Numbered from the stretch's first letter, positions 15,403 through 60,787 are shown. The stretch is DNA of 64,000 bases from an uncultured Pseudomonadales bacterium (GCA_964403125.1 CAYOEO010000002.1:632-64631), one strand, 5' to 3'. The notes: a model not told the origin generated them from the letters alone. Numbers and translations: made by a program.

Positions 15403-15421
15403 GTGCAGCGAGGTGATCGCG

Positions 15422-15967: not shown

Positions 15968-16022
15968 AAAACGCGTTAAAAAAGATGAGAAAAAACAAGA
16001 GAAAACATAAAAAGGTTTTGTT

Positions 16023-35138: not shown

Positions 35139-36014
35139 GTGAAACGCCATACCATCACAATGTCACTTTTGTTGGTGTTATCGTCGGCTTTGCTGGCGGC
35201 TTGCAAAAGTACGGCGCAACTGCCACCGATAGAACAAATGGCACAGCCTCCCAGCATTCGTTTGAATTATCTCATCGCGTCACGTGATGATTCGCTGTAC
35301 ACCATTGCTTGGCGATACGGCGTGGATGTGCAGGAATTGGCGCGACGCAACAATATTGCGCCGCCGTATCACCTGCGTGCTGGACAAAAAATTATGTTGT
35401 CTGATGGCGATGCTGCTACGCGCTTAGCAGAGTCGCGCAGCGTTGCTACACCGCGCGGTGTGAAAATTGCAGCTGTGCAAGAAGATCAGCCAGTCGTAGA
35501 AGTGGTTTCTACAACGCCTGCGCACACAACACCAACAACACACAGCGCGGTGAGCGAGCAGAGACCCTCTCACACGGCGACACCCGTGTCGGAGTCTGCT
35601 GCATCAACTGTCGCGGCATCGTCTGCTGTGGGGTCAGGCACGAGTGGTCGATGGCTGTGGCCCACCAGTGGTCGCGTGATTACGCTGTACTCAGCCACTG
35701 ACCCGCTGCGTAAAGGCATCGACTTGGAAGGTAAATTGGGCGACCCCGTGAAAGCAGCGAGCTCTGGCTCTGTGGTGTACGCGGGCAGCGGTTTAGCGGG
35801 CTATGGGCAACTCATTATCATCAAACACGATGACCAATTTCTCAGCGCTTACGGACACAATAGCAAGTTGCTAGTTGCTGAAGGTGACACGGTGAAAAAA
35901 GGGCAAGTGATTGCGCAAGTGGGTTCGAGTGGCACGGATAAAAACAAACTGCATTTTGAAATTCGTAAAGCGGGTAAACCTGTCGATCCACTGCTGTATT
36001 TGCCGCGCAGATAA
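35139..36014 (+). CDS. nlpD: LysM/M23 lipoprotein NlpD
   Basis: LAAC lipobox, LysM (SLYTIAWRYG...N), M23-like KGIDL, YGHN, LHFEIR. Confidence 0.93.
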   Translation: MKRHTITMSLLLVLSSALLAACKSTAQLPPIEQMAQPPSIRLNYLIASRDDSLYTIAWRYGVDVQELARRNNIAPPYHLRAGQKIMLSDGDAATRLAESRSVATPRGVKIAAVQEDQPVVEVVSTTPAHTTPTTHSAVSEQRPSHTATPVSESAASTVAASSAVGSGTSGRWLWPTSGRVITLYSATDPLRKGIDLEGKLGDPVKAASSGSVVYAGSGLAGYGQLIIIKHDDQFLSAYGHNSKLLVAEGDTVKKGQVIAQVGSSGTDKNKLHFEIRKAGKPVDPLLYLPRR

Positions 36015-36018
36015 CTTT

Positions 36019-37122
36019 TTACAAGCGCTGAGTGCGCAGTTGTTGTAAACCTTCGCTGGATGCAGCAAAAATACCGTACTCGGTGATTAAACCGCTGATC
36101 AAACGCGCAGGCGTTACATCAAATGCGTAATTGGCAGCGTGTACGTGTTCTGGTGTGATGCGGACGTGTTGCACCGCATGAGTGTTGGGATGCACACCTT
36201 GCACATGCGTCAATTCAAAACTGTCGCGTTCTTCGATAGGAATTTCACGCAGACCATCGCGCACGGTCCAATCAATGGTTGAAGTTGGCAGCGCAACATA
36301 AAACGGCACGCCGTTATCTTTTGCTGCCAGCGCTTTGAGATAAGTGCCAATTTTGTTGCACACATCGCCTTGCGCGGTGGTGCGATCGGTGCCGACGATG
36401 CACAAATCTACCAGATGATGCTGCATCAAATGACCGCCAGTGTTGTCGGTAATATAAGTGTGCGGCACACCCGCTTGCTGCAGTTCCCATGCCGTGAGCG
36501 CGCCTTGTAAACGTGGACGTGTTTCGTCAACCCACACATGCACGGGTATGCCTGCCAAATGTGCTTTGTAAATAGGTGCGAGCGCGGTTCCCCAATCGAC
36601 AGTGGCTATCCATCCCGCGTTGCAATGTGTCAGCATATTGACGGTCGGTGATTGTTGCAGCGCTAATTTTTTTTGATGAATCGCTTCAATTAACGCCAAG
36701 CCGTGATCGCCAATGGCCGAACAAACACTGACATCTTCCTCGCAAATTTTTTGTGCTTCAATTTTTGCGGATTCTGCCTTTTTTCCGAGCGGCGCAGAAG
36801 CAATGGCTGCACGCACGCGTTCCACTGCCCAACGCAAATTAATCGCCGTGGGGCGTGTGGCAATGAGTTGTAGTGCAGAGGATTCTTCGTGTTCAGGTGA
36901 ATCATCCGCGCGCAGCGCAAAATATAAACCAAAGGCGGCACAGGCGCCGATTAAAGGTGCGCCGCGCACTTGCATACTGGCGATAGCGTGGCAGACATCA
37001 CCCAAACTGTTCAGTTGCAAATGTTTGATTTCGTGCGGCAGCAGGGTTTGGTCAAAAATGATGGCGCTGTCGGTACTCGCATCGTGCCAAATGCTGCGGT
37101 AATAAGTGTCTTGGATGAACAT
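36019..37122 (-). CDS. mtnA: S-methyl-5-thioribose-1-phosphate isomerase
   Basis: DQTLLP, VRGAPLIG, TRPTAINL, THCNAG, DETRP, NKIGTY, FDVTP. Confidence 0.95.
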   Translation of the reverse strand: MFIQDTYYRSIWHDASTDSAIIFDQTLLPHEIKHLQLNSLGDVCHAIASMQVRGAPLIGACAAFGLYFALRADDSPEHEESSALQLIATRPTAINLRWAVERVRAAIASAPLGKKAESAKIEAQKICEEDVSVCSAIGDHGLALIEAIHQKKLALQQSPTVNMLTHCNAGWIATVDWGTALAPIYKAHLAGIPVHVWVDETRPRLQGALTAWELQQAGVPHTYITDNTGGHLMQHHLVDLCIVGTDRTTAQGDVCNKIGTYLKALAAKDNGVPFYVALPTSTIDWTVRDGLREIPIEERDSFELTHVQGVHPNTHAVQHVRITPEHVHAANYAFDVTPARLISGLITEYGIFAASSEGLQQLRTQRL

Positions 37123-37141
37123 GGCGTTGCCTAATGAAATA

Positions 37142-37585
37142 TCAGTAGCGGTCGAGGTCTTCTTCCACAACGGGAATGCTTTTTTGTGGCGTAGTGTTTT
37201 TAGCTGGCGCTGTGCCTTTGTTGGTAATCGGCGTGTTAGATGTCGCATCAACCTTGGCGTTTTTGTCGGCTTCGCACATTAAATAAAGGCGCACGTCCGT
37301 AATCGATTTACCGTGGCGAAATGAAAAAGCCGTTGTTTTTTCTGGTGCAATTGGTGTGTCTTTTCCTTTACTGGTTTCTTGTCGATTGGTAATCATCTTG
37401 GCATCGCAAATGACCGGTACGCGGTCGTGATTGATGGCGTACAACGTGGTTTCTATGTTGGTGCTTTCCACGTAGTAGCTGATGGTCATGCCTTCGAGCT
37501 GCGTAAATACTTGGTAGCGCGGGCCATCGGCAAAGACCGTGGTGCTGGCAAAAAAAACAAGGAGGGCAAGGAGAGTTTTGCGCAT
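37142..37585 (-). CDS. Hypothetical secreted protein (147 aa)
   Basis: Signal peptide MRKTLLALLVFFASTTVFA; two Cys; fills the gap. Confidence 0.75.
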   Translation of the reverse strand: MRKTLLALLVFFASTTVFADGPRYQVFTQLEGMTISYYVESTNIETTLYAINHDRVPVICDAKMITNRQETSKGKDTPIAPEKTTAFSFRHGKSITDVRLYLMCEADKNAKVDATSNTPITNKGTAPAKNTTPQKSIPVVEEDLDRY

Positions 37586-37791: not shown

Positions 37792-37965
37792 ATGGCGTAC
37801 AGAAAGTTTGAATGTGTAATCTGTGGATTCATCTACGATGAAGAAAAAGGTCTGCCAGAAGAAGGTATTGCGCCTGGCACAAAATGGGAAGACGTGCCCG
37901 ATGATTGGGAATGCCCAGAGTGCGGCGTGAGCAAATACGATTTTGAAATGGTGCAAACTGCTTAA
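37792..37965 (+). CDS. rubA: Rubredoxin
   Basis: ATG after GGAGG; CVICGFIYD...WECPECG; 57 aa. Confidence 0.95.
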   Translation: MAYRKFECVICGFIYDEEKGLPEEGIAPGTKWEDVPDDWECPECGVSKYDFEMVQTA

Positions 37966-38015
37966 TCCCATTAGTAGGGCGTCAGTTTCTTGAGCGTCCT
38001 AATCGTACCGTGATG

Positions 38016-38044
38016 AGGGTCGCCGAGGGCGGCCTTTATTTTTT
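38016..38044 (+). terminator. Probable Rho-independent terminator after rubredoxin
   Basis: GGTCGCC-gag-GGCGGCC then TTTATTTTTT. Confidence 0.65.
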
Positions 38045-38082: not shown

Positions 38083-39315
38083 GTGCTATCCCTCAAAAGC
38101 CCTACCTCGCGCTGCCCTAATCCGCTGTCTTACTGGGTGCTGTTGCTGACGGTAACTTCGTACGGTGTCGTCAACAATGTGGTGTTCAGCCTGCTGCCAT
38201 TAATAGGCACCAGTCTTGGACTCACCACGCGCCAAATCACGTTGATTGGCAGTTGCGCGGCTCTGCTCGTGTTTTTGGTCAGCCCGTGGTGGGGCAGAAA
38301 AAGCGATCAGTGGGGACGCCGCACCTCTATTTTGATTGGAGTCGGTGGCTACTGTTTCTCTGCCCTGCTGTTAGTGTTGTTTTTTACGCTGAGCCAGATG
38401 CGTTTGATCGCGGTGGATATGCTGTACTACGGCGTTTTTGCCAGTCGCTTGCTGCAAGCCTTTTTGATTGCGGCGATGTTACCTGCCATCACCGCGTATG
38501 TCATTGACATCACCTTGCCTGACGAGCGCGCCGTGGGCTTGAGCCAGACGGGTGCTGCGCACGGTGTCGGTGCAATCGTGGGGCCTTCACTGGTGATGTT
38601 GGCGACATGGTCGCTGCTGTTGCCTTTGTACGCGGCGGTTGTGCTGGCGTTGTTCGTCGCCATTTTGGTGGCGAAATTTTTGGTCGAGCCATATCGCCAT
38701 ACCGCAGCAGCGAAGAGCAGTACGCCGTTGAAGAAGCTGAGTTATTTTGATGCGCGCTACCGAAACTTATTGTTGGTGGGTGTCATTGTGTATTTAGGTA
38801 TGGCGGTATCGACGCAGATGATGGGTTTTTATCTGCCCTATGTGATTCAAAAAGACGCCTTGGGTTCAGCGACAATGTTGGGTGTCGCGCAGGCATTGAT
38901 GGCAGGCGCGACGGTGTTTGGGCAATTGGTGTTGGTGCAGCGTTTGGGGTGGTCACCCGCACGCTTGCTGCAAGTAGGTATCCCCATGATGGCGATAGGT
39001 TTTGTGTGTTTGGCTGCTGCAACTGGCGCGATGCTTTTGTGTGTGGGCGTTGCGCTGCTGGGCTTGGGCTTGGGTGTCACGGGCCCTGGATTTTCTGCTG
39101 CTGTTTCGCTGAGCGTGGACGCCAACGAGCAAGGAGCGATTGCTGGTTTCCTCGCCGCCTGTCCTGCTTTGGGCTATGTAATCGGCCCTTTTGGGGCTGG
39201 CGTACTTTACGAGTGGTATCCCAGAGCGCCTTTTATTGTAGTAGTGATTTTGCTAGTTGGCGCTTGGGTGGCTCTGCAGTGGGATGTGCGCAGTAAAAAG
39301 TTATTAGAGGTTTAG
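38083..39315 (+). CDS. MFS transporter (DHA1/TetA-like)
   Basis: Motif A WGRKSDQWGRR; about 12 hydrophobic segments. Confidence 0.9.
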   Translation: MLSLKSPTSRCPNPLSYWVLLLTVTSYGVVNNVVFSLLPLIGTSLGLTTRQITLIGSCAALLVFLVSPWWGRKSDQWGRRTSILIGVGGYCFSALLLVLFFTLSQMRLIAVDMLYYGVFASRLLQAFLIAAMLPAITAYVIDITLPDERAVGLSQTGAAHGVGAIVGPSLVMLATWSLLLPLYAAVVLALFVAILVAKFLVEPYRHTAAAKSSTPLKKLSYFDARYRNLLLVGVIVYLGMAVSTQMMGFYLPYVIQKDALGSATMLGVAQALMAGATVFGQLVLVQRLGWSPARLLQVGIPMMAIGFVCLAAATGAMLLCVGVALLGLGLGVTGPGFSAAVSLSVDANEQGAIAGFLAACPALGYVIGPFGAGVLYEWYPRAPFIVVVILLVGAWVALQWDVRSKKLLEV

Positions 39316-39375
39316 CTGGTCTGTAATCGTCGCTGCGCGGTTTACCTATAGGATAGGTGCGGGTAAGATTCGTCA

Positions 39376-39408
39376 GTCTTGTTTTCGGAGGAAGGCTGAA
39401 AACAAGGC
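39376..39408. other. 13-bp stem-loop with AGGAAGG loop in a 240-bp intergenic region
   Basis: GTCTTGTTTTCGG-aggaagg-CTGAAAACAAGGC, with two G-U pairs. Confidence 0.55.
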
Positions 39409-39557
39409 GGTACCACCTTAGTAAGCTACGAAGATTGAGTTCCTCGCAAGTAGAAAGCCTCGCTAATAAAAAGCCCGTTTAAGGCTTTGTAGTGCCTGCT
39501 TCTGCTGGCACAGCTTTATGGTATGCCGTATTCGCTAGTTGTTGAGCGAGTGTAGGC

Positions 39558-40883
39558 ATGTTTTACGTAGATGATTCAGGGCACATCAGAATGAATAAAA
39601 AAATCACGTCCCTTGGACTGCTCGCAACATCTTTGCGCAGCGTAGCCATGGTCACTGTATTGCTGGCGACAGCCGTTTCTGCTTCAGCACAAGAAACGGC
39701 GGTGTCTGCACAAAATGCATCAACCAATAGCCAAGAACCTGCTATCAAAAGCGCCAAAGTGGCGCAGTCGTTGCTGCAAGACATCACGCGCATTGGTGAC
39801 CGCCTCGTGGTAGTGGGTGAGCGCGGACATATCGCCACCTCTGACGACAATGGCAAAACATGGCAGCAAGCCGAAGTGCCGACACGCGCCATGATGAATG
39901 CAGTATTTTTTATCTCGCCAACCCAAGGCTGGGCCGTGGGTCACGATGAATTGGTTCTGCACACGATCGATGCCGGTAGAACGTGGACGATTCAATTAGA
40001 CGGTTTGAAATTTACGCGCAAACGTATGGCGGACAGCATTCCTACACTGGAAGCTAAACTCAAAGAATTAGAAGCCAATAAAAAAGCAGCGGAAGATCAA
40101 TTGGATGGCTTGAAACCTGCTGATGATGGCGCGGCTGCCAGTGGCGGCGATGAAGATGGTGAGGCGGCTGATGGCGCGCACGATCAAGTTGAAAATATGG
40201 TGACAGAGCTGGATGACAAAATTGCCACCGCAGAAACAGATTTATCCGATGCCAAAGAAGCGTTGAGCAACACGGTAGCGAATCCTTTGATGGATGTGTG
40301 GTTCCGCGATGAACACACTGGCTACGCGGTTGGTGCTTTCGGCGAATTTATTATGACGACGGACGGCGGTACCACGTGGACCAGCATCGCTGATCGTTTG
40401 AATAATCCCGATAAAAACCATCTCAACGCTATCGTAGGTGACGCAAACGGTTTGATGTATATCGCTGGTGAAGCAGGGCATGTTTACCGCAGCACTAATG
40501 GCGGCACGAGCTGGACACAGTTGGAGTCGCCAGATCCAGAAAACGGCTCTTTCTTTGCTATCAATATCGTTTCTGCCAATGAAGTATTTATTGCTGGTTT
40601 GCGCGGCGTGATGTACCGCTCGTTAGATCGCGGCGAAAGCTGGAAGCAAATTACCGAAGAGATGCATAAAAACATTAATACTGTGTACTTCGTCGATAAA
40701 GACACGGTACTTGCGGTAGGCAATGACGGCTCATTTTTGAGAAGTCGCGACGGTGGACGCACCTTCCAACAATATTCTCGCAAAGACAGATTAACCGTTG
40801 CGTCGGTAACGGTTGCCGCAGACGGTAATTACATTCTTGTTGGCGCTGGCGGTGTAGAAATCGTGTCGCCTGCTAGTTTGTAA
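39558..40883 (+). CDS. YCF48-like/BNR beta-propeller periplasmic protein with helical insertion
   Basis: Signal peptide; repeated S/T-D-x-G-x-T-W (SDDNGKTW, TIDAGRTW, TTDGGTTW, STNGGTSW, SLDRGESW, SRDGGRTF); start 39558 or 39591. Confidence 0.88.
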   Translation: MFYVDDSGHIRMNKKITSLGLLATSLRSVAMVTVLLATAVSASAQETAVSAQNASTNSQEPAIKSAKVAQSLLQDITRIGDRLVVVGERGHIATSDDNGKTWQQAEVPTRAMMNAVFFISPTQGWAVGHDELVLHTIDAGRTWTIQLDGLKFTRKRMADSIPTLEAKLKELEANKKAAEDQLDGLKPADDGAAASGGDEDGEAADGAHDQVENMVTELDDKIATAETDLSDAKEALSNTVANPLMDVWFRDEHTGYAVGAFGEFIMTTDGGTTWTSIADRLNNPDKNHLNAIVGDANGLMYIAGEAGHVYRSTNGGTSWTQLESPDPENGSFFAINIVSANEVFIAGLRGVMYRSLDRGESWKQITEEMHKNINTVYFVDKDTVLAVGNDGSFLRSRDGGRTFQQYSRKDRLTVASVTVAADGNYILVGAGGVEIVSPASL

Positions 40884-40942
40884 ACAGTGTTTCCATTTTG
40901 AAATCAAACAGAACAATAACTTTAAGCTAGAGGTTGAGCAGT

Positions 40943-43402
40943 ATGGCTGGAGCAGCGCGTCAATACGGTGAGCCGTACCGTTACGGTGACGAAGAAAAAA
41001 GAATGGAGAAGTTGATTTTTAATCATCGCCCCATTTGGCTGGTGATTATTGCAGTGTTGACGCTGTATTTTGGTTATGAAATGACCAAAATTAAGATTGA
41101 TGCGCGCTTTGAGAAAATGCTGCCCATGCAGCATGAGTATCTGAAAAATATGTTCAGTCGTCTTGATGATTTAACGCAGAAAGGCCTGTCTTTTAAAATC
41201 GCTATCGAAAACACGCAGGGCGATATTTTTGATAAAGAGTATTTGCAAGTTGTGCAAAACGTGCACGACAAAGTATTCAATATCAACGGCGTTGACCGCA
41301 CCTCATTGCGCTCTATGTGGGCACCTTCAGTGCGTTGGCAGGCGGTAACGCCGCAAGGTTTTGATGGGGATCGTCTCATTCCTGGTGAATACGATGGCAG
41401 TCCAGAAAGTTTAGAGCGCGTTAAATTAAACGTGTTTCGTTCAACAGAAATTGGACGTTTGATTTCAGATAATTTCAAATCGTCTATAGTTGAGGCGTAT
41501 GTTTTCTCAACGTATCCCAATGATGATGATCGCGGTCATAAAGCCGGCGACACGATTGATTTCCAAGATCTAGGTAATATTTTAGAAGACATTCGCGCGG
41601 ATGTTAACAAGAAATACAACGGTAAATATCGCGTTTACATCATTGGCGAACCCAAAATGATCGGTGATTTCATCACCGGCTCTAGCCAGATAGTTTTGTT
41701 CGGCGGTATCGCGCTCGTTATTACCATCATTCTTTTGTATTTGTATGCGCGTTGCTGGCGTGCAGCTTTGATGCCGTTGTTTACATCAGTCATTGCTGTG
41801 GTTTGGATGCTCGGTATTTTGAGTGTGATGTCACATTTCAACGTGCCCTACGGCAACGTGCCGGTGAAAGTGAACGGCGTTATGGAAAACGTCGAAGTGT
41901 TTTCCGGTATTGGTTTGTTCTCCATGTTGGTGCCATTTTTGTTGGTAGCAATCGGCGTAAGTCACAGCGTGCAGTACGTGAATGCCATGGCGGTGGAAAT
42001 GGCGCATGGACACAACAAACTGCAAGCAAGCCGTCGCGCTTTCCGAACCAACTATTTGCCAGGCATCACCGCGTTGCTGACTAACGCTTTTAGCTTTTTG
42101 ACCATGGTGTTGATTCCTATTTCAGCGATTAAAGAATTGGCGTTTACCGCGTGTATTGGTACGGCTGTATTGATCGTATTGAAACTGATGTTGCTGCCGA
42201 TACTGCTGTCTTATTCCGGTATTACTCCATCGGGCATCAGGCACATGCAGTTGAGTGAAGAAAAGGATTCACCCATCTGGCTTTTCTTGGCGAGGTTCAC
42301 GGAATCGCGCTGGGCAATTGTTGCTTTGATTTTTGCTGGCGCACTGGCGGTCTACAGTGTGTATGAAAGACAATTTCTCAAAATTGGTGATATCGCTGAA
42401 GGTTCGCCAGAGTTGCGCCCTGATTCCACCTACAACAAGGATGTGAAATTTATTACATCAAACTATGCCACGAGTTCTGATTTGTTTGTGGTGATGGTGA
42501 CCACAGTGCCGGGTGAGTGCTTCAAGCAAAAAAACATGGAAGCGATGGATGATTTGGAGTGGGCGCTTAACAACACCGAAGGTGTGCAAGCAACAGCATC
42601 AGCAGCATTTGTGGCAAAAAACTTTATCGCTGGTTTGACGGAGGGTCATATCAAATGGATGACGCTGGGGCGCAACCAAGAAGCGATTGATGGCTCATTC
42701 AATATCACCGCAGATATGGGCTTGGTGAACGAGAAATGCAGCTTTGCTCCGGTGGTTGCGTTCTTGAAAGATCACAAAGCAGAAACGCTTGATCGTGTTG
42801 CTAAAGTTGTAAAAGCTTTTGCGGATCAGCACAACACGGCGGATATTAAATTCCTTTTAGCGACAGGTAATGCAGGTATTGCTGCGGCGGTCAACCAAGA
42901 AATTCATTCAGCGCAGAACAAAATGTTGTGGTTGGTGTACGCCGTAGTTGCCGCGTTGGTGTTCTTCACTTTCCCCTCTATCAAAGCGATGCTTTGTATT
43001 TTGGGTCCATTGGCACTGACATCTATTTTGTGTGAAGCCTTGATGGCGAAGCTGGGCATCGGTGTCAAAGTGGCAACATTGCCCGTTATTACTTTGGGTG
43101 TTGGTGTCGGTGTGGATTACGGGATTTATATTTACAGTCGCATGGAAAGTTATTTCAAAGAAGGCAAATCACTGCGCGACTCTTATTTGTTGACACTAAA
43201 AACGACAGGCAAAGCGGTGAGCTTCACTGGTTTGACTTTGGCGTTTGGTGTAGCAACGTGGTATTGGTCCGCTATTCAATTCCAAAAAGACATGGGTATT
43301 TTGTTGGTGTTCATGTTCCTTTGGAACATGGCCGGTGCATTGACACTACTCCCTGCCTTGGCGCATTTCTTATTGCCCAAAGGCGGGAAAGCTGCGACCT
43401 AA
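40943..43402 (+). CDS. RND superfamily (MMPL/HAE-like) transporter
   Basis: Two periplasmic loops with two TM bundles; AIGVSHSVQ and GVGVDYGIY motifs; start 40943 or 41003. Confidence 0.9.
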   Translation: MAGAARQYGEPYRYGDEEKRMEKLIFNHRPIWLVIIAVLTLYFGYEMTKIKIDARFEKMLPMQHEYLKNMFSRLDDLTQKGLSFKIAIENTQGDIFDKEYLQVVQNVHDKVFNINGVDRTSLRSMWAPSVRWQAVTPQGFDGDRLIPGEYDGSPESLERVKLNVFRSTEIGRLISDNFKSSIVEAYVFSTYPNDDDRGHKAGDTIDFQDLGNILEDIRADVNKKYNGKYRVYIIGEPKMIGDFITGSSQIVLFGGIALVITIILLYLYARCWRAALMPLFTSVIAVVWMLGILSVMSHFNVPYGNVPVKVNGVMENVEVFSGIGLFSMLVPFLLVAIGVSHSVQYVNAMAVEMAHGHNKLQASRRAFRTNYLPGITALLTNAFSFLTMVLIPISAIKELAFTACIGTAVLIVLKLMLLPILLSYSGITPSGIRHMQLSEEKDSPIWLFLARFTESRWAIVALIFAGALAVYSVYERQFLKIGDIAEGSPELRPDSTYNKDVKFITSNYATSSDLFVVMVTTVPGECFKQKNMEAMDDLEWALNNTEGVQATASAAFVAKNFIAGLTEGHIKWMTLGRNQEAIDGSFNITADMGLVNEKCSFAPVVAFLKDHKAETLDRVAKVVKAFADQHNTADIKFLLATGNAGIAAAVNQEIHSAQNKMLWLVYAVVAALVFFTFPSIKAMLCILGPLALTSILCEALMAKLGIGVKVATLPVITLGVGVGVDYGIYIYSRMESYFKEGKSLRDSYLLTLKTTGKAVSFTGLTLAFGVATWYWSAIQFQKDMGILLVFMFLWNMAGALTLLPALAHFLLPKGGKAAT

Positions 43403-43431
43403 TGCTGTTTTGATGCCGTGTAAAAATGACT

Positions 43432-43459
43432 AAAGCCCGTGGTTTGCACGGGCTTTTTA
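43432..43459 (+). terminator. Rho-independent terminator after RND gene
   Basis: AAAGCCCGTG-gtttg-CACGGGCTTT-TT. Confidence 0.85.
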
Positions 43460-43502
43460 TTTGCAACGATTTTTAATTTTGCTTGAGAAAAAAGGAGTCA
43501 TT

Positions 43503-45107
43503 ATGTTTGACTATATTGTGATTGGTGCCGGGTCGGCGGGTTGTGTGTTGGCGGCGCGTTTATCTGAAAACGCACAACATTCTGTGCTGTTGTTAGAAGC
43601 GGGCCCTAAAGACAATAACCCGATGGTGCATATGCCAGGTGGTGCAGCGGAAGTATTAAAAAGTAACAAAATGAATTGGCAGATGTACACCGTGCCGCAA
43701 AAAGCGTTGAACAATCGAAAAATTTATGTGCCTCGCGGCAAATTATTGGGCGGCTCTAGCAGCTTGAATGGCATGGTTTACATTCGCGGACACCAATGGG
43801 ATTACGATCATTGGAGTGAACTGGGTAATGCCGGTTGGTCTTATAACGAAGTGCTGCCTTACTTCAAACGCTCAGAAGACAATGTGCGCGGCGAATCGCG
43901 TTATCACGGCGTTGGCGGTGGCTTAAAAGTTTCTGACGCACCTTGCGACAATATTTTGTATGACAAATTTATTGCAGCCGGTTTGGAATTGGGTTATTCC
44001 CCTACAGATGATTTTAATGGTGCACAGCAAGAAGGTTTTGCACGCTATCAAGCAACTTTGCGCAACGGGAAACGCTCTAGCTCGGCGGTGGCGTTTCTTA
44101 CGCCAGAAGTCCGTAAACGCCCCAACTTAACTATCGTCACCGGCGCACACGTCACACGTATTTTGCTGGATGGCAGTCGCGCAACAGGTGTGGAATACAA
44201 GCAGGGCAGCAAATCGCGTTTGGTGGAGGCAAAACTGGAAATCGTGCTGTCAGCCGGCGCCATCAAATCTCCGCATATTTTGCAAACTTCAGGTATTGGG
44301 CGAAAAGAAGATTTGGAGCGCGCTGGTATTAAGGTACTGAAAGACTTGCCCGGTGTCGGTCACAACTTGCAAGAGCATTTGGATATTTTGGTCAACTACA
44401 CTTGCACCAAGCCGATCACTATGAATGCTGCCGCAACACAAATTCCACTGCAAATTAAAACAGCATTTGAATATTTTGTGCTCGGCAAAGGTATCGCTGC
44501 TTGCAACATGATTGAAGCGGGCGGCTTCGTAAAATCATCTGCTGATTTGGCGATTCCCGATATTCAGTTGCACTTTATTCCTATTTTGATGCACGGCTTG
44601 ATTGATCCGATTCCGAAGCAGCACGGCATGTCTATTCACGCCTGTCAGTTGCGCCCACAAAGCCGTGGTTCTGTTACACCCGCTAGCGCCGATCCATTTG
44701 CATCGCCGTTGGTGGATTTTAATTTTCTCGATAACGAGCACGATTGGAAAGTCATCCAGCGCAGCTATGAAATTGTGCGTGATATTGCACAGGCTAAAGC
44801 CTGGGATGGTTTGATGGGTGAGCCGTCGCGCCCTGATAAACATTTAACGGATGAAGGCAGAATTCGTGAATTTTTGCGTCAGGTGTGTGAAACGGTTTAT
44901 CACCCCGTTGGTACCTGCAAAATGGGTTCTGATGAACAGGCTGTTGTCGATAATGAATTGCGTGTTCACGGCATTGAAGGTTTGCGCGTTGCCGATGCTT
45001 CCATCATGCCAACATTAATTGGCGGCAACACTAATGCACCTTGCATGATGATCGGTGAAAAATGTTCCGATCTCCTCCTTGGTCGCAAATTACCTGCTGA
45101 GGCTTAA
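43503..45107 (+). CDS. GMC family FAD oxidoreductase (AlkJ/choline dehydrogenase-like)
   Basis: DYIVIGAGSAGC, RGKLLGGSSSLNGMVYIRG, YHPVGTCKMG, GNTNAP. Confidence 0.93.
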   Translation: MFDYIVIGAGSAGCVLAARLSENAQHSVLLLEAGPKDNNPMVHMPGGAAEVLKSNKMNWQMYTVPQKALNNRKIYVPRGKLLGGSSSLNGMVYIRGHQWDYDHWSELGNAGWSYNEVLPYFKRSEDNVRGESRYHGVGGGLKVSDAPCDNILYDKFIAAGLELGYSPTDDFNGAQQEGFARYQATLRNGKRSSSAVAFLTPEVRKRPNLTIVTGAHVTRILLDGSRATGVEYKQGSKSRLVEAKLEIVLSAGAIKSPHILQTSGIGRKEDLERAGIKVLKDLPGVGHNLQEHLDILVNYTCTKPITMNAAATQIPLQIKTAFEYFVLGKGIAACNMIEAGGFVKSSADLAIPDIQLHFIPILMHGLIDPIPKQHGMSIHACQLRPQSRGSVTPASADPFASPLVDFNFLDNEHDWKVIQRSYEIVRDIAQAKAWDGLMGEPSRPDKHLTDEGRIREFLRQVCETVYHPVGTCKMGSDEQAVVDNELRVHGIEGLRVADASIMPTLIGGNTNAPCMMIGEKCSDLLLGRKLPAEA

Positions 45108-45125
45108 TGCGCTAGGTATTGATGT

Positions 45126-46991
45126 GTGGATGCCCATGAAAACAAACCGCCGGTTGCGCTCAAAGAGTTAATCGAGTTTGCTCAGGGGTTCATGCCGCCT
45201 GACGAGGCAACAATCAAGTTTCGACAAGCATATGCTGATCAAGGAAAAGAATTTAGCAGTGAGCTAGCTGTTTCTGTATTTGATATTGATGTCGCTGAAG
45301 AAATTATTTGCCATTCAGTAGGCAATACCGAATCCGTTGCCATTGGCAATATGGTGCGTGCTTTTGTCGGTCGCGGCGCTGTACAAATTGCAGATGTGTT
45401 GAGCATCATCAGTGGCGCGCGTTTCTTTTTTGAATTCATGCAGGAGTTGGTTCAATCTTCGATTGAACATATTTCGCAAGGTATCAGTGTTGTCGATCAG
45501 CAGATGCGCATGGTGGCGTGGAATAAACGCTATTTGGAATTTTTTGAATATCCTGATGAATATGTAAGAACCGGCAGACCTGTTGCTGATTTGATTCGAT
45601 TTAATCTCGAAAAAATTGGCTGTCAGACAGAAGAGTTGGAGGCGGAGGTTGAAAAACGTATTCGCTATCTGAAAGAAGGTAATCCGCATAATTTCGAGCG
45701 CTATCGCCCTGAAGGTCGCGTACTGGAAGTCAGTGGCAATCCCATGCCGGGCGGTGGCTTTGTCACAAGCTACACGGATATTACGGCACACAAAGAATTA
45801 GAACGTCAATTGCGTGCAGCCAATGAAACATTGGAGTTGCGTGTACAACAACGTACACAAGAATTAGAGTTGGCAAAGTCTGAAGCGGAACAGGCAAACT
45901 TATCTAAAACACGATTTCTGGCAGCGGCAAGTCACGATTTGATGCAGCCGCTCAATGCAGCATCGCTGTTTGCCTCTGCGTTGGCGCAAAAAACACAGGA
46001 TAGCGAACAGCAAACGCTTTCTGAAAATATTGTGCTGTCGCTGCAAGCGGCTGATGCGCTCATCAACAGCATGTTAGAAGCATCGCGTTTAGATGCCGGC
46101 GTCGTAGAGCCTAAACGTGAAGTGTTTTATTTACAGGATTTATTTGATCGTTTAGGGCGAGAATTTACTGCGCTAGCCGATGCGCGTGGGCTAAAGTTTC
46201 GCATGGTGCAAACGCGGCAGGCAGTGTGGAGTGATCCGCATTTATTGCGCCGCATTTTGCAGAATTTTTTATCTAATGCCGTGCGTTATACAGGGTCGGG
46301 GCGTGTTGTATTGGGCTGTCGTCGGCTGGGAAATATTTTACGCATTGAAGTGTGGGATACCGGCCCTGGTATTCCATCGGATAAATGCAGTGAAATTTTT
46401 TTGGAGTTCCGCCGCTTAAAAACACCGGAACATGACAAAGGCGAACGAGGTTTGGGCTTGGGTTTGGCAATTGCTGATCGTATTTCACGCCTGCTGGATC
46501 ATCCCATTAGTTTGCGTTCGTGGCCGCAGCGCGGCTCCGTTTTTGCTGTTGATGTGCCTGTGGCGCGGTCGCAGCCGGTTGTGCCTGTGATGGCGCAGAC
46601 GACACTGGTGCATTCTGGTGGCAGTCTCGCACTCACGGTGTTGTGTATTGATAACGAACGCAGCGTTTTGGCGGGTATGAGAGCTCTGTTAGAAGGATGG
46701 GGGTGCACGGTGGCAACCGCGCACGACCACGCTTCCGCTATACAGGCTTTGCATCAATTTCCGCTGGATTTAGTGATTGCGGATTACCAACTGGATGATG
46801 GCGTGACCGGCTTGGGCGTGGCGGGTGATTTAGTTAGCGCAGCAGAGCGCGAATTGCCTGTTTTAGTGATTACTGCCAATAACACCGAAGATATTCGGCG
46901 CTTGGTGGAAGATCACGGCTACGCGTTTATGGCAAAGCCAGTGAAGCCAGCGAAGCTGCGTGCGTTGTTGTCGTCGCTGCAAAACCGATAG
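45126..46991 (+). CDS. Hybrid sensor histidine kinase (STAC-like, PAS, HisKA, HATPase, receiver), CrbS/MxtR-like without membrane domain
   Basis: QGISVVD..VAWNKRY PAS, SHDLMQPLNA H-box, NFLSNA, DTGPGI, GLGL, DYQLD receiver; no TM segment. Confidence 0.9.
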   Translation: MDAHENKPPVALKELIEFAQGFMPPDEATIKFRQAYADQGKEFSSELAVSVFDIDVAEEIICHSVGNTESVAIGNMVRAFVGRGAVQIADVLSIISGARFFFEFMQELVQSSIEHISQGISVVDQQMRMVAWNKRYLEFFEYPDEYVRTGRPVADLIRFNLEKIGCQTEELEAEVEKRIRYLKEGNPHNFERYRPEGRVLEVSGNPMPGGGFVTSYTDITAHKELERQLRAANETLELRVQQRTQELELAKSEAEQANLSKTRFLAAASHDLMQPLNAASLFASALAQKTQDSEQQTLSENIVLSLQAADALINSMLEASRLDAGVVEPKREVFYLQDLFDRLGREFTALADARGLKFRMVQTRQAVWSDPHLLRRILQNFLSNAVRYTGSGRVVLGCRRLGNILRIEVWDTGPGIPSDKCSEIFLEFRRLKTPEHDKGERGLGLGLAIADRISRLLDHPISLRSWPQRGSVFAVDVPVARSQPVVPVMAQTTLVHSGGSLALTVLCIDNERSVLAGMRALLEGWGCTVATAHDHASAIQALHQFPLDLVIADYQLDDGVTGLGVAGDLVSAAERELPVLVITANNTEDIRRLVEDHGYAFMAKPVKPAKLRALLSSLQNR

Positions 46992-47001
46992 TTGTGATTG
47001 T

Positions 47002-47640
47002 TTAGCTCGGTTCTTCGATGTTGAGGTAGCCGGCAGCCAGCACGGCTTGTGTGCGGTTCCTGACGCCTAGTTTGCGAAAGATGGCCGTCATGTGTGTGCG
47101 GACAGTGGCTTCCGAAACATTCACTTCGCCAGCAATTTGTTTGTTCAGCAATCCTTTCGTTAGCATCATAAATACGCGCAGTTGCTGCGGTGTCAGTGTC
47201 TTGAGGCGTTGCGCAAATTCGCGTTCGGCGTTATCAGCCCTCTGTGGCAAATGAGTCGGTAGCCATAGCGATCCATCCAAAATACTTTGTAGCGCTGTGG
47301 CTATTTGGCTCAAGTCAGACGCTTTAGGGATAAAACCAGAAATACCGTATTCGATGGCGCGCTGTACGATGCTGTAATCGTCACTGGCAGAAATGACCAC
47401 CACAGGAATATCAGGGTATTGCCCGCGGATGAGTACTAAGCCGGAAAAGCCATTCGCTCCTGGCATGCGCAAGTCCAGCAAAATCAGATCCACCTCGCTT
47501 TGCTGTGCAAGCAGGCTTTCTAGGGAGTCAATGCTGTCGCATTCCAAAATGTTGGCATCTTTCACTACCTGTTTGACAGCTTGGCAGAGCGCGTTGCGAA
47601 AAAGAGGGTGATCATCGGCAATAACAATATTGGTGCTCAT
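47002..47640 (-). CDS. LuxR/NarL family response regulator (CrbR/ErdR-like)
   Basis: IADDHPLFR, LLDLRMPG, GFIPK, LTPQQ...NKQIA...TVRTHMTAIFRKLGVRNRTQA. Confidence 0.92.
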   Translation of the reverse strand: MSTNIVIADDHPLFRNALCQAVKQVVKDANILECDSIDSLESLLAQQSEVDLILLDLRMPGANGFSGLVLIRGQYPDIPVVVISASDDYSIVQRAIEYGISGFIPKASDLSQIATALQSILDGSLWLPTHLPQRADNAEREFAQRLKTLTPQQLRVFMMLTKGLLNKQIAGEVNVSEATVRTHMTAIFRKLGVRNRTQAVLAAGYLNIEEPS

Positions 47641-47958
47641 GGCGCTTACGGCTGCTTTTCGGAAAGGTGGCTATCATAAACAAAAAAAGCCGCTGGAAGC
47701 CTGAATGACAGATTGTTCCCAGTGAACTATCGATAAAAAACCGTTTTTTTGTAACCATGGGTAACATTTCTATCTCTGATGGATGCTATTTCACACTTCA
47801 GCCGAGCATTGTGTGCTGAGTGGCTAAAAAATAAGGAAATTTTACTTTGCACTTTACGGTTTTTTCTGGCTTAATCCTGCACCGTGAGTCTTTCTGTATG
47901 CCGTAAAACTGATGCGGTCTACATGGGAATAACAAATAACACCAACACGGGCGGAGCA

Positions 47959-49758
47959 ATGATGAAAATAAGAAGTCGATTGGGCTGGGCGATTAAAGCA
48001 ATCGCAATCGCAGGATTACTGCCTCTTTCACTGCAAGTGCATGCGCTGGAGTTTGAAGTGTCTGATGACTTAAAAGTCGATGTAGACACTACCATTACCT
48101 ATGGTCGCCAGTGGCGCGTTGAGGGGCGCGATAAAAATTTGATGTCGGGGCATCTTGGTGAGGGTGCGCGTACAGACGCGTTCTCATCAGCTTTTAAAGA
48201 TTATGTACAACGCGTTAACTCTGATGATGGCACGCGTAACTATGATAAATGGGATACTGTTTCAAATCGTGTTGGCATCCTTTCCGATATTAATATCTCA
48301 TACCAGAATTTGGGTCTCTTTTTGCGCCCTCAGATTTTTTATGACTCAGTACCGTTTGGAAGACCGCATTGGTCGGATAAATACCTTGCTGGCTTGAACA
48401 CACCTGCCACAGGCAGCAATAACCAGCTTAATGCTGACCTGAATAATGAGGGTGGTATTAACTCTGTAAATCATTGGGATGACGAATATAAGCACACTAT
48501 GGGCTATAAAGCTCGTTTCTTAGATGCCTATGCTTATGGTTCCTTTGATATTGGTGGTCATAACTTGGATGTTCGCGTGGGCCGCCAAGTCATTACTTGG
48601 GGTGAAGCTTTGATGTTACAAGGCGGTATTGCTTTTGCACAAAACCGCATTGATTCTTCCGCATCAACTGTTCCCGGTGTTGAGTTGAAAGAAGTGTTCT
48701 TGCCGACTGGCGCGGTTTACGGCTCTTTTGCTGCAACGGACAGTACGACGATTGAAGCCTATTGGCAGTATGAGTGGATTAAGTCCACGCTATTTCCAAC
48801 GGGGTCTTTCTTTGAGATGCAAGATTTTATTGATGGAGACAGATTTATTACAGTGCCTTCATTTAGCGGTACTGCTGGTATTGGGATGAGTCGCGTCGAA
48901 CACAATCCCAACAATAATAAGCAGTTTGGTTTTGCTGTAAGGCAAACAGTTGGAGAGGGCACGGAGCTCGGTGCATTTATAGTTAACTACACTGACAAGT
49001 ATCCAATGTTTTGGGCTGCTAATAATTATGGTGAAACTCTGCCTACTAGTGCTCCTGGATATGATCGTGATACTTACAGTATTAACTATTTTGATAATAT
49101 TCGCCTGTATGGTCTTTCGCTGAACACTGTTATTGGTGGGGTTCAAGTGGGGGCAGAGTATGCTTATCGAGCCAACGCGCCGCTGGTTCCTGTGTGTGGT
49201 GCTAAAGATATAGCGCGCGCTCACTGTAAAGATGCGAGCTATTACGCATTTAACGGATTGACTTGGCCTACTAATTCGACAGATGCACAAATCTTAGCCA
49301 ATACAGGTGCGTTTAGTTGGCCACGCAGGGCTGAAATTCATACAGCCAACTTAGGTGGGACTTATATTTTCCAACCTAATGCATTCTGGGATACGGCAAC
49401 ATTGGTGGGTGAATTGGGCACTTGGTATGTCGGTGGTTTCGAGGATGATGATTTGCAGTTTGCTCACTTGGGCGCGTTTACAAAAACCGGCTATGGTATG
49501 AGTGCGCAATTTATGCCGGAGTACAAAAACGTATTCGAAGGCGTAGATCTGACGATTCCGTTCTTCGTGAACTACGGCATCGACGGCAGCTTCTCAACAT
49601 TCAACTACAACGAACACAACTTGTGGTGGAGCGTGGGCGCAGAGTTTACCTACTTGGAGCATTGGAAATTCTCTGGCTATTACAGTGATTTCAGTGGTCC
49701 AAACAACTTGTGGGTAGACCGCGACAACGTTTCTTTGAACGTGAAATACACTTTCTAA
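47959..49758 (+). CDS. DUF1302 family outer-membrane protein
   Basis: ATG after GGAG; signal peptide; DDGTRNY, LDAYAYG, RVGRQVITWGE, ELKEVFLP, DRDNVSLNVKYTF with terminal Phe. Confidence 0.85.
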   Translation: MMKIRSRLGWAIKAIAIAGLLPLSLQVHALEFEVSDDLKVDVDTTITYGRQWRVEGRDKNLMSGHLGEGARTDAFSSAFKDYVQRVNSDDGTRNYDKWDTVSNRVGILSDINISYQNLGLFLRPQIFYDSVPFGRPHWSDKYLAGLNTPATGSNNQLNADLNNEGGINSVNHWDDEYKHTMGYKARFLDAYAYGSFDIGGHNLDVRVGRQVITWGEALMLQGGIAFAQNRIDSSASTVPGVELKEVFLPTGAVYGSFAATDSTTIEAYWQYEWIKSTLFPTGSFFEMQDFIDGDRFITVPSFSGTAGIGMSRVEHNPNNNKQFGFAVRQTVGEGTELGAFIVNYTDKYPMFWAANNYGETLPTSAPGYDRDTYSINYFDNIRLYGLSLNTVIGGVQVGAEYAYRANAPLVPVCGAKDIARAHCKDASYYAFNGLTWPTNSTDAQILANTGAFSWPRRAEIHTANLGGTYIFQPNAFWDTATLVGELGTWYVGGFEDDDLQFAHLGAFTKTGYGMSAQFMPEYKNVFEGVDLTIPFFVNYGIDGSFSTFNYNEHNLWWSVGAEFTYLEHWKFSGYYSDFSGPNNLWVDRDNVSLNVKYTF

Positions 49759-49779: not shown

Positions 49780-49808
49780 AAAAAAAGGAGACTTCGGTCT
49801 CCTTTTTT
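49780..49808. terminator. Bidirectional terminator between DUF1302 gene and guaA
   Basis: AAAAAAAGGAGAC-ttcg-GTCTCCTTTTTT. Confidence 0.9.
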
Positions 49809-60785: not shown

Positions 60786-60787
60786 CG

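What the first reader, a model, noticed from the sequence alone, without database searches (positions are those of the whole stretch)
38083..49758. Candidate uptake-oxidise-sense module for a hydrophobic substrate, lacking the usual DUF1329 component
Seen: MFS, YCF48-like propeller, RND, GMC oxidoreductase and hybrid kinase on the plus strand, a convergent LuxR regulator, then a divergent DUF1302 outer-membrane protein ending at a strong terminator. Known: DUF1302-DUF1329-YCF48-RND recurs as an uncharacterised four-gene set in lipid, hydrocarbon and steroid degraders. Here the order is broken, DUF1329 is absent, and an oxidase plus two-component system lie between the parts. Inference: a self-contained system importing a long-chain alcohol or lipid, oxidising it, and sensing the product intracellularly.
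Basis: partly seen in the sequence, partly recalled or inferred. Interest (0 to 1): 0.68.

Follow-up and report, generated by a model that had tools for sequence, protein, structure and literature searches.

The report
Hydrophobe transport cluster lacking DUF1329
An uncultured soil/wetland gammaproteobacterium carries a conserved cluster with an outer-membrane barrel, a periplasmic propeller, an inner-membrane RND pump, a flavin dehydrogenase and a two-component sensor; it is a rearranged, separately regulated version of a known but poorly understood four-protein hydrocarbon/lipid transport system, and one of the four usual parts is not encoded nearby.

Summary
All seven genes are present and DUF1329 is absent from the whole 64-kb window. 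BNR-RND-GMC-kinase-regulator-DUF1302 recurs in all 7 related species with enough flank. An eighth informative relative, L016, has the barrel next to a P450 instead. The MFS gene is present in 6 of the 7.

- **Prior knowledge:** the four-gene set is not uncharacterised. It is AmeABCD of Castellaniella, reported as an efflux/tolerance system, and it is cofit in RB-TnSeq screens.
- **Transport direction:** the nearest characterised relatives of both transporters are exporters, so import is not supported by precedent.
- **Transcription:** the cluster reads as several units, not one operon. A conserved terminator separates RND from GMC.
- **Deepest conserved unit:** kinase-regulator-DUF1302. In more distant relatives it sits beside CYP51/CYP120-like P450 and aldehyde dehydrogenase genes.
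- **DUF1302 clade:** the barrel is divergent (about 25-33% identity to canonical ones) and never has an adjacent DUF1329.
- **BNR hairpin:** the propeller carries an 82-97-residue helical hairpin that is missing from a canonical DUF1329-containing cluster.
- **New RNA element:** a covarying 5' hairpin with an invariant RGGAAGG loop precedes BNR.

Genome-wide absence of DUF1329 could not be tested. Verdict: a new variant of a known kind, of moderate interest.

The parts
37792..37965 (+). Rubredoxin gene (57 aa). It is a conserved upstream neighbour; whether it belongs to the module is uncertain.
   Evidence: Translation. The orthologous 57-aa genes in L003 and L033 carry PF00301. Its own terminator lies at 38015-38044.
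38083..39315 (+). MFS transporter with about 11-12 TM segments, of the DHA1 / NorA-Tet-like type.
   Evidence: Pfam MFS_1 2e-38. Weak Tet-family hits only. Nearest solved structure is NorA at 7e-7. Present next to BNR in L003, L011, L017, L019, L021, L033 and L034, but absent in L005 and L035.
39341..39369 (+). Conserved sigma-70-like promoter of the BNR-RND unit: TTTACC, 17-nt spacer, TAAGAT. The arms also form an inverted repeat, TTACC...GGTAA.
   Evidence: GGTTTACCT-N16-TAAKAT is invariant in 7 relatives, including L005, which has no MFS upstream. That this is a promoter is inferred from sequence only.
39373..39411 (+). 5' leader hairpin. The stem is 39376-39388 paired with 39396-39408; the invariant loop AGGAAGG is at 39389-39395.
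   Evidence: 9 of 13 pairs change on both sides. 91% of cells are paired against 68-70% in shuffles and 27-47% when the partner is slid. The covariance model finds one hit per clade locus and none elsewhere. No Rfam match.
39412..39590 (+). Remainder of the conserved leader. It holds a second hairpin with one covarying pair, the 9-mer TATGCCGTA at 39522-39530, and a stem that encloses the start codon.
39591..40883 (+). Periplasmic YCF48/BNR seven-blade propeller (AmeC-like) with a long helical hairpin insert.
   Evidence: Pfam. AlphaFold model with pLDDT 90.6, helices 138-173 and 192-224. Foldseek top hits are YCF48. Insert lengths compared.
40934..43402 (+). RND transporter of the HAE3/MMPL type (AmeD-like).
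   Evidence: Pfam MMPL. TIGR00921 HAE3 is the best NCBIfam hit but falls below its cut-off. TM pattern. 75-96% identical in relatives with the full arrangement.
43432..43456 (+). Intrinsic terminator that ends the BNR-RND unit.
   Evidence: 10-bp GC-rich stem followed by a T run. It is conserved in all 7 relatives examined, with compensatory changes (GCCCGTG/CACGGGC versus ACCCGTG/CACGGGT).
43503..45107 (+). GMC flavoprotein dehydrogenase of the choline-dehydrogenase subfamily. It is not BetA and has no signal peptide.
45126..46991 (+). Soluble PAS_7 hybrid histidine kinase of the NahK/ErcS' family. It starts 18 nt after the GMC stop codon.
47002..47640 (-). NarL-type response regulator (REC + GerE); ErdR is its best match.
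   Evidence: The identical protein occurs on two metagenome contigs.
47751..47766 (+). GTAACC-N4-GGTAACA repeat upstream of the DUF1302 promoter; a candidate regulator site.
   Evidence: Conserved in the four closest relatives. Other relatives carry AGATATATGTCGTA at the same place. The motif is not enriched in the window. Speculative.
47847..47875 (+). Conserved extended -10 promoter of DUF1302: TTGCAC, 17-nt spacer, TG-n-CTTAAT.
   Evidence: The same layout is kept down to relatives whose DUF1302 is only 36% identical. Coordinates. Inferred from sequence.
47962..49758 (+). DUF1302 outer-membrane beta-barrel (AmeA-like), from a divergent clade.
   Evidence: Pfam 6e-124. Clade structure. Barrel model with pLDDT 64.5 and porin/AlgE/OccK fold matches.
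49780..49808 (.). Bidirectional intrinsic terminator shared with guaA.

Best explanation
This is an inducible envelope system that handles a hydrophobic, alcohol-type compound. It is a rearranged variant of the AmeABCD / DUF1302-DUF1329-BNR-RND system.

Shown here:
- gene content;
- conservation of the arrangement;
- separate transcription signals: a BNR-RND unit with its own promoter, structured leader and terminator, a GMC-kinase unit, the regulator, and DUF1302 with its own promoter and terminator;
- no DUF1329 nearby.

Inferred mechanism:
1. The soluble PAS hybrid kinase, co-transcribed with the GMC dehydrogenase, senses the compound, or a product or redox consequence of its oxidation, in the cytoplasm.
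2. The kinase phosphorylates the NarL/ErdR-like regulator.
3. The regulator switches on the DUF1302 barrel gene, and probably the BNR-RND unit as well. Kinase-regulator-barrel is the deepest conserved unit.
4. The barrel gives the compound a path through the outer membrane.
5. The BNR propeller and the HAE3 RND pump use the proton gradient to move the compound between the outer leaflet of the inner membrane and the barrel.
6. The 50-Angstrom-scale helical hairpin of the propeller may provide the periplasmic link that DUF1329 is predicted to provide in canonical systems.
7. The GMC flavoprotein oxidises the alcohol at the cytoplasmic face.

Direction: by family precedent I take the pump and the MFS to work outward. 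They would limit the membrane load of a toxic growth substrate while entry is passive. Net import is the main rival.
For: - **Domains and topology:**
- **Arrangement conserved:** 7 of 8 informative relatives.
- **Trio conserved in other contexts:** next to CYP51-like P450 with ferredoxin, and aldehyde dehydrogenase. In L016 the barrel sits next to a CYP120-like P450 and an aldehyde dehydrogenase.
- **Functional link between barrel and pump:** DUF1302 is cofit with BNR-RND in other bacteria (10.1101/072470; 10.1101/2020.07.04.188060).
- **Export precedent:** AmeABCD deletion lowers monoterpene tolerance and raises Nile Red accumulation (PMC6394551). The nearest characterised relatives of the RND and the MFS are exporters.
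- **Role of DUF1329 in canonical systems:** it is predicted to link the barrel to BNR-RND (PMC10866462; PMC13499233).
- **Hairpin length:** 82-97 residues in BNR from loci without DUF1329, against 10-14 in canonical Moraxellaceae and Atopomonas proteins.
- **Transcription units:** conserved terminator and promoters.
Against: - No expression, binding or transport data exist for this locus, and no RNA runs hold it.
- Synteny within this lineage is partly uninformative, because the housekeeping neighbours guaA and guaB are conserved alongside the cluster.
- The link between BNR-RND and the trio is seen in one lineage only. In MAG GCA_028280345.1 the two lie on different contigs.
- No regulator-binding motif shared by the BNR and DUF1302 promoters is conserved across species. 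Only a within-genome 9-mer is shared.
- The hairpin correlation rests on few loci. A medium hairpin of 61 residues co-occurs with DUF1329 in Mangrovitalea.
- DUF1329 may be encoded elsewhere in the genome.
- P. putida mutants fail on Tween 20 and butyl stearate as carbon sources, which fits uptake as well as efflux.
Confidence: 0.4

Rival explanations
1. Net uptake for catabolism. The barrel, BNR-RND and MFS bring a hydrophobic alcohol, ester or lipid into the cell. GMC oxidises it and the kinase senses the product.
For: - PP_0765/0766 and PP_2018/2019 are needed for growth on Tween 20 and butyl stearate but not on free fatty acids (10.1101/2020.07.04.188060).
- The Foldy authors propose a substrate transport system (PMC10866462).
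- The cytoplasmic GMC enzyme and the cytoplasmic sensor both need the compound inside the cell.
- Oxidative enzymes are recurrent neighbours.
Against: - Every characterised bacterial relative of the RND (HpnN, MmpL, AmeD) and of this type of MFS exports its substrate (PMC6394551).
- Hydrophobic compounds can reach a membrane-associated enzyme without a pump.
Confidence: 0.25
2. Export or placement of an endogenous envelope lipid or glycolipid, as HpnN does for hopanoids. GMC would act as a biosynthetic or modifying enzyme.
For: - In relatives a polytopic membrane protein of 573-581 aa with no Pfam match sits directly upstream of GMC (L033, L034).
- In L034, B12-radical-SAM and GT2/nucleotidyl-transferase genes lie between RND and GMC.
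- Price et al. proposed export of a cell-wall component, and the mutant phenotypes were pleiotropic (10.1101/072470).
Against: - Those extra genes are absent from the window.
- The two-component control resembles catabolic ErdR/ErcS' circuits (PMC9927353).
- The trio sits next to P450 and aldehyde dehydrogenase genes elsewhere.
Confidence: 0.15
3. This is an ordinary four-part system whose DUF1329 gene simply lies elsewhere in the genome, as the parts are split between loci in Pseudomonas. This is independent of transport direction.
For: - Split arrangements exist: P. stutzeri and P. putida (10.1101/072470), MAG GCA_028280345.1, and Mangrovitalea, which has DUF1329-BNR-RND without DUF1302.
- Only about 20-64 kb per genome could be examined.
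Against: - Where DUF1329 was seen, it was adjacent to DUF1302 (7 loci) or to BNR-RND (1 locus).
- In this clade neither partner has it in about 14 loci.
- In GCA_028280345.1 both the barrel locus and the pump locus lack it.
Confidence: 0.35
4. The units are neighbours by descent only and have no common function.
For: - guaA and guaB are conserved next to the cluster just as well.
- Terminators separate the units.
- No promoter motif is shared across species.
Against: - The sub-modules recur in other contexts (trio; MFS-BNR-RND with GMC nearby).
- DUF1302 and BNR-RND are cofit in several other bacteria.
Confidence: 0.1

Closest known systems
AmeABCD of Castellaniella defragrans (tetrapartite HAE3 RND system; PMC6394551)
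   Same: It has a DUF1302 outer-membrane protein (AmeA), a COG4447 BNR propeller (AmeC) and an HAE3-type RND (AmeD). It is linked to the metabolism of hydrophobic substrates.
   Different: - AmeB (DUF1329) has no counterpart nearby.
- The order is not A-B-C-D.
- The barrel shares only about 25-33% identity with canonical DUF1302 proteins.
- AmeC is 316 aa, whereas this BNR is 430 aa with a 97-residue hairpin.
- A GMC enzyme and a two-component system lie between the parts.
PP_0765/PP_0766 with PP_2018/PP_2019 of P. putida, and Sama_1588-1591 of Shewanella (RB-TnSeq cofit sets)
   Same: The same protein families are involved, the parts can be split between loci, and a GerE-type regulator sits next to the barrel gene.
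   Different: - In a Pseudomonas locus examined here the neighbouring LuxR is an 870-aa MalT-type protein, not a response regulator.
- In Pseudomonas, DUF1329 follows DUF1302.
- There is no GMC enzyme and no hybrid kinase.
HpnN and MmpL lipid exporters
   Same: The RND fold type and the MMPL Pfam domain are shared, and the substrates are hydrophobic.
   Different: Similarity is very distant (1e-8 to MmpL3; HpnN model 54 bits against a cut-off of 752). Those pumps work without a BNR propeller or a DUF1302 barrel.
ErcS'/NahK and ErdR circuits of Pseudomonas aeruginosa (control of ethanol and acetate use; PMC9927353)
   Same: A soluble PAS hybrid kinase whose NahK/ErcS-type C-terminal region passes its cut-off, paired with a NarL-type regulator whose best match is ErdR.
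   Different: Neither protein is an orthologue: NahK 397 bits against 1500, and ErdR 256 bits against 390. The targets differ.
AlkJ and BetA-type membrane-associated GMC dehydrogenases
   Same: Choline-dehydrogenase subfamily (660 bits against a cut-off of 605) with an N-terminal FAD motif and no signal peptide.
   Different: It fails the BetA equivalog (564 bits against 732). Identity to AlkJ was not measured. The substrate is unknown.

Membership tests
AmeABCD-type four-part HAE3 RND system | DUF1302 outer-membrane beta-barrel with a signal peptide | tested here: met
   PF06980 at 415 bits. The model is a barrel. An N-terminal hydrophobic segment is present.
AmeABCD-type four-part HAE3 RND system | DUF1329 (LolA-like) periplasmic protein encoded with the set | tested here: not met
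   No PF07044 hit in the Pfam scans of window ORFs. A custom HMM found nothing in the window or in about 14 clade loci, while it did find all 9 positive controls. The rest of the genome could not be searched.
AmeABCD-type four-part HAE3 RND system | COG4447 / YCF48-like BNR propeller, periplasmic | tested here: met
   It carries an added helical hairpin.
AmeABCD-type four-part HAE3 RND system | HAE3-family RND with 12 TM segments and two periplasmic loops | tested here: inconclusive
   The MMPL Pfam domain passes its cut-off. TIGR00921 HAE3 is the best NCBIfam hit at 150 bits, below its cut-off of 352. 11 hydrophobic segments and two large loops are predicted. Identity to the RND of a canonical cluster is 43%.
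AmeABCD-type four-part HAE3 RND system | Contiguous gene order A-B-C-D in one cassette | tested here: not met
   The order is BNR-RND | GMC-HK | RR | DUF1302, with a terminator after RND.
AmeABCD-type four-part HAE3 RND system | Confers tolerance to, or transport of, hydrophobic compounds | not testable with these tools
   This needs genetics or transport assays.
NahK/ErcS' hybrid kinases | NahK/ErcS-type HisKA-HATPase-REC region | tested here: met
   NF041832 at 446 bits against a cut-off of 400.
NahK/ErcS' hybrid kinases | Full-length NahK architecture | tested here: not met
   NF041831 at 397 bits against a cut-off of 1500. This protein is 621 aa; the model is 854 positions long.
ErdR response regulators | Score above the ErdR model cut-off | tested here: not met
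   NF041830 at 256 bits against a cut-off of 390. It is the best hit, so the protein is a paralogue of NarL type.
Choline dehydrogenase BetA | Score above the BetA equivalog cut-off | tested here: not met
   TIGR01810 at 564 bits against 732. The broader PRK02106 subfamily is met at 660 bits against 605.
CsrA/RsmA-bound leader hairpins (considered for the RNA element) | GGA motif in the loop of a hairpin, with a second GGA site at the ribosome-binding site | tested here: inconclusive
   The AGGAAGG loop on a covarying stem is present. No clear GGA lies at the ribosome-binding site. Binding was not testable.

The most novel reading that the evidence does not exclude
A three-part HAE3 RND system that works without DUF1329. 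The long coiled-coil hairpin inserted in the BNR propeller reaches the divergent DUF1302 barrel, as the alpha-hairpin of a membrane-fusion protein reaches TolC. The system would be controlled at two levels: by a kinase-regulator pair dedicated to the barrel gene, and by a new GGA-loop leader RNA on the pump mRNA.
Probability: 0.2. Interest if true: 0.7.

Novelty: new variant of a known kind. Interest (0 to 1): 0.5.

Why it matters
The DUF1302/DUF1329/BNR/RND set is widespread in bacteria that degrade hydrocarbons, terpenes, steroids and lipids, yet its mechanism and its transport direction are unknown.

- **A natural experiment:** a conserved variant without DUF1329, with a longer propeller hairpin, shows which parts may be dispensable and how the periplasm might be bridged.
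- **A route to the substrate:** the dedicated sensor kinase, regulator and dehydrogenase offer a way to find the substrate, through reporter induction and enzyme assay. The canonical systems lack such a handle.
- **A new regulatory RNA:** the leader hairpin is a candidate regulatory RNA specific to this pump.

Tried and rejected
1. **Alkane uptake with CYP153.** I expected the P450s next to the trio to be alkane hydroxylases. They are CYP51-like (3e-130 to Methylococcus CYP51) and CYP120/CYP51-clan, so the idea was dropped.
2. **Unannotated 455-456-aa proteins as divergent DUF1329.** The proteins in L008 and L009 are unrelated to each other and to the window.
3. **The regulator as the counterpart of the Pseudomonas 'LuxR' next to DUF1302.** That protein is MalT-type and 870 aa long, so only the GerE domain is shared.
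4. **Sigma-54 promoters at the TGGCAC strings in the leaders.** The -12 element does not fit.
5. **GTAACC-N4-GGTAAC as a repeated operator.** It is not enriched in the window.
6. **Exact 8-mers shared by the BNR and DUF1302 upstream regions.** None is conserved across species.
7. **RNAalifold on the plain MAFFT alignment.** It missed the leader hairpin because the stems were out of register. Anchoring on the loop and a covariance model recovered it.
8. **Rfam.** No match.
9. **RNA-seq runs.** None available.
10. **Context of the Marinobacter BNR (P0227).** Not on record.
11. **Genome-wide search for DUF1329.** No tool could read whole MAGs, and a protein search would not have ranked the right genomes, so I did not spend one on it.
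12. **Identity to AlkJ.** No AlkJ sequence was at hand. The plasmid search gave only about 47-49% hits annotated as 'choline dehydrogenase'.

Full report
**What is there.**
- An MFS transporter at 38083-39315.
- A YCF48-like BNR propeller with a signal peptide at 39591-40883.
- An MMPL/HAE3-type RND at 40934/41003-43402.
- A GMC flavoprotein at 43503-45107. It passes the choline-dehydrogenase subfamily model but fails the BetA equivalog.
- A PAS_7 hybrid histidine kinase at 45126-46991. Its C-terminal region passes the NahK/ErcS' family model.
- A convergent REC-GerE regulator at 47002-47640 on the minus strand. ErdR is its best match, but below the cut-off.
- A divergent DUF1302 protein at 47962-49758.

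Hydropathy shows that the kinase and the GMC enzyme have no membrane segment or signal peptide. The RND has about 11-12 TM segments and two large loops. A clean bidirectional terminator follows DUF1302. The flanks are housekeeping genes: pcm, nlpD and mtnA upstream, and guaA, guaB and xseA downstream.

**DUF1329.** Pfam scans of 50 window ORFs, covering every non-nested ORF of at least 150 aa, gave no PF07044 hit. I then took confirmed DUF1329 proteins from canonical clusters found during the work. One was verified at 518 bits and others carried precomputed annotation. An HMM built from them recovered all nine positive controls. It found nothing in the window or in any locus of the window's clade. 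Whether the gene lies elsewhere in the genome could not be tested. The window is 64 kb of a 73.6-kb contig, and the tools cannot read whole MAGs.

**Conservation.** The DUF1302 protein belongs to a distinct clade. Identity runs continuously from 100% down to about 36%, all in uncultured 'Pseudomonadales/Cellvibrionales' MAGs. It then drops to 34% and below, and is only about 24-25% to Pseudomonas proteins. The organism is found in wetland, soil and wastewater metagenomes.
- All six species representatives with enough flank (L011, L012, L015, L017, L019, L021) have BNR-RND-GMC-HK-RR-DUF1302 in the same order, as does L033. All but L033, whose contig ends within DUF1302, also show guaA next, and guaB where the locus extends that far.
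- Three short contigs (L010, L013, L014) show the RR-DUF1302 end of the arrangement.
- MFS is present in all but L005/L015.
- L016 is the one exception. Its barrel, 61% identical, lies next to a P450, with ATP sulfurylase and aldehyde dehydrogenase genes beyond it.
- RND and GMC are the most conserved proteins (75-96%). BNR and the barrel diverge faster.

**Sub-modules.** In more distant relatives (barrel 36-48% identical; L007=L020, L008, L009, L018) only kinase-regulator-barrel stays together, with the kinase 57-61% and the regulator 66-68% identical.
- In three of these four loci an aldehyde dehydrogenase follows the barrel. The fourth, L018, is a contig that ends within the barrel gene.
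- In two of them a P450-ferredoxin pair precedes the kinase. That P450 is CYP51-like (3e-130 to Methylococcus CYP51). The P450 in L016 is CYP120/CYP51-clan.
- MFS-BNR-RND also occurs without the trio within reach (L034). There a GMC enzyme 67% identical lies a few genes downstream.
- In MAG GCA_028280345.1 the BNR-RND pair and the trio sit on different contigs, and neither has a DUF1329 gene next to it.

The cluster in the window is therefore a lineage-specific union of at least two older modules.

**Canonical comparison.**
- Moraxellaceae MAG loci show the textbook order DUF1302-DUF1329-BNR-RND.
- A Pseudomonas genome has DUF1302-DUF1329 followed by an 870-aa MalT-type LuxR. The 'LuxR next to DUF1302' reported for Pseudomonas (10.1101/2020.07.04.188060; PMC13499233) is thus a different kind of regulator from the one here.
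- Mangrovitalea has DUF1329-BNR-RND without a barrel gene.

**Transcription signals.**
- A 10-bp GC-rich hairpin with a T run lies between RND and GMC (43432-43456). It is kept in all seven relatives examined, with compensatory changes. BNR-RND therefore reads as its own unit.
- GMC and the kinase are 18 nt apart.
- Upstream of BNR, the sequence GGTTTACCT-N16-TAAGAT, read as a -35/-10 pair, is invariant. This holds even where no MFS precedes it.
- Upstream of DUF1302, an extended -10 promoter layout is kept down to the 36% relatives.
- A 9-mer, TATGCCGTA, occurs only twice in the window, once in each of these two leaders, 62-69 nt before the start codons. No exact 8-mer is shared by the two regions across species, so common regulation remains unproven.

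**A new RNA element.** Right after the BNR promoter lies a hairpin (39376-39408) whose loop, RGGAAGG, is invariant while the stem changes freely.
- On five ungapped sequences, 9 of 13 pairs change on both sides and 90.8% of cells pair. Shuffles give 68% and slid partners give 29-46%.
- On ten distinct sequences aligned by a covariance model the figures are 91.3% against 70%.
- The model finds exactly one hit per clade locus and none in canonical or trio-only loci.
- A scan of metagenome contigs found six true instances, all in front of BNR in the same cluster.
- Rfam has no match.

I chose the structure by eye from these same sequences, so the slide control is somewhat flattering. The loop resembles the GGA loops bound by CsrA/RsmA proteins. 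That comparison rests on my own knowledge and was not tested.

**Structures.**
- The BNR model is confident (pLDDT 90.6). It is a seven-blade propeller whose nearest fold is YCF48. Two helices of about 35 residues each (138-173 and 192-224) form a hairpin with a disordered acidic tip.
- The insert is 82-97 residues in loci without DUF1329 (window, L005, L033, L034, L035). It is 61 residues in Mangrovitalea and other marine proteins, and 10-14 residues in the canonical Moraxellaceae and Atopomonas proteins.
- The correlation is suggestive, but it is based on few loci and is not strict.
- The barrel model is weak (pLDDT 64.5). It is a beta-barrel that matches porins, AlgE and OccK, in line with PMC13499233.

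**What is known.**
- Price et al. found the four families cofit and proposed export of a cell-wall component (10.1101/072470).
- Thompson et al. found them needed on Tween 20 and butyl stearate (10.1101/2020.07.04.188060).
- The Foldy paper predicted that DUF1329 contacts both the barrel and the BNR-RND complex (PMC10866462).
- Puentes-Cala and Harder named the set AmeABCD. They showed lower monoterpene tolerance and more Nile Red accumulation in a deletion mutant (PMC6394551).
- The RND here is only distantly like solved MmpL pumps, and the MFS is distantly like NorA. All of these are exporters.
- ErdR and ErcS' control ethanol and acetate use in P. aeruginosa (PMC9927353).

**Reading.** The best-supported account is a regulated envelope system for a hydrophobic alcohol-type compound, coupled to the compound's oxidation. 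I take the pump direction to be outward, on precedent. Import is the main rival. A role in placing an endogenous lipid is possible, because relatives carry a polytopic membrane protein with no Pfam match next to GMC, and one of them (L034) also has radical-SAM and glycosyl-transferase genes nearby. The substrate class is open. The P450 neighbours point to isoprenoid or sterol-like molecules. The rubredoxin gene upstream and a rubredoxin reductase at 17207-18358 point to alkane-type oxidation.

**Verdict.** The system is a new variant of a known kind. Its most interesting unproven feature is that it may work without DUF1329.

Noticed in passing
window 39373-39411 (leader continues to 39590): A 5' hairpin upstream of BNR with an invariant RGGAAGG loop and a strongly covarying 13-bp stem. 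There is one copy per related locus and no Rfam match. It is a candidate new cis-regulatory RNA, and its loop resembles CsrA/RsmA-bound GGA loops.
   Followed up: yes
window 43432-43456: An intrinsic terminator between RND and GMC, conserved with compensatory changes in all seven relatives examined. It splits the cluster into separate transcription units.
   Followed up: yes
window 39522-39530 and 47897-47905: The 9-mer TATGCCGTA occurs only twice in 64 kb. Both copies are on the + strand, in the leaders of BNR and DUF1302, 62-69 nt before the start codons. In L011 a different 11-mer (TGGCACGGCTT) is shared by the same two leaders.
   Followed up: partly
window 37792-37965 and 17207-18358: A rubredoxin gene with its own terminator sits just upstream of MFS and is conserved there in L003 and L033. 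A rubredoxin reductase lies 20 kb away. No AlkB-type hydroxylase is present in the window.
   Followed up: partly
L007 3496-5033 and L009 5624-7158; L016 3092-4636: A CYP51-like P450 with a ferredoxin lies next to the kinase-regulator-DUF1302 trio in uncultured Pseudomonadales, and in L007 a 3beta-HSD-like SDR follows them. A CYP120-like P450 lies next to the barrel in L016. This is an unexpected sterol/isoprenoid flavour.
   Followed up: partly
L033 13629-15350; L034 18806-20551; L008 90-1835: A recurring polytopic membrane protein of 573-581 aa (8-10 TM segments plus a soluble C-terminal part) with no Pfam match. It lies directly upstream of GMC in two relatives and is absent from the window.
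   Followed up: partly
L044 8416-13597 (Mangrovitalea sediminis): DUF1329-BNR-RND sits next to pepN without any DUF1302 gene. This is the mirror image of the window's variant.
   Followed up: partly
window 10355-16838: A run of beta-oxidation-type genes: a long acyl-CoA dehydrogenase, an SDR, a 483-aa protein with a ChsH2-type zinc ribbon, an SCP2-type thiolase-like protein and an enoyl-CoA hydratase. The set is reminiscent of side-chain degradation of steroids or branched lipids.
   Followed up: no
window 54214-55353 and 57151-62281: Two tandem pairs of an MBOAT (AlgI-like) gene with an AlgX-like SGNH protein gene, plus an Acyl_transf_3 gene. These look like polysaccharide or envelope O-acylation genes. 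MBOAT, AlgX-like and Acyl_transf_3 genes are also annotated downstream of guaB in L003, and MBOAT and Acyl_transf_3 genes in L005.
   Followed up: no
window 35139-37585: nlpD is not followed by rpoS. Instead mtnA lies on the opposite strand, followed by a small secreted 147-aa protein (37142-37585) that has a 34% identical homologue at the same place in L033.
   Followed up: no
L022 (MAG labelled Pedobacter sp.): This contig carries a gammaproteobacterial-type DUF1302-DUF1329 pair, with the DUF1302 30% identical to the window's. It may be a binning error.
   Followed up: no
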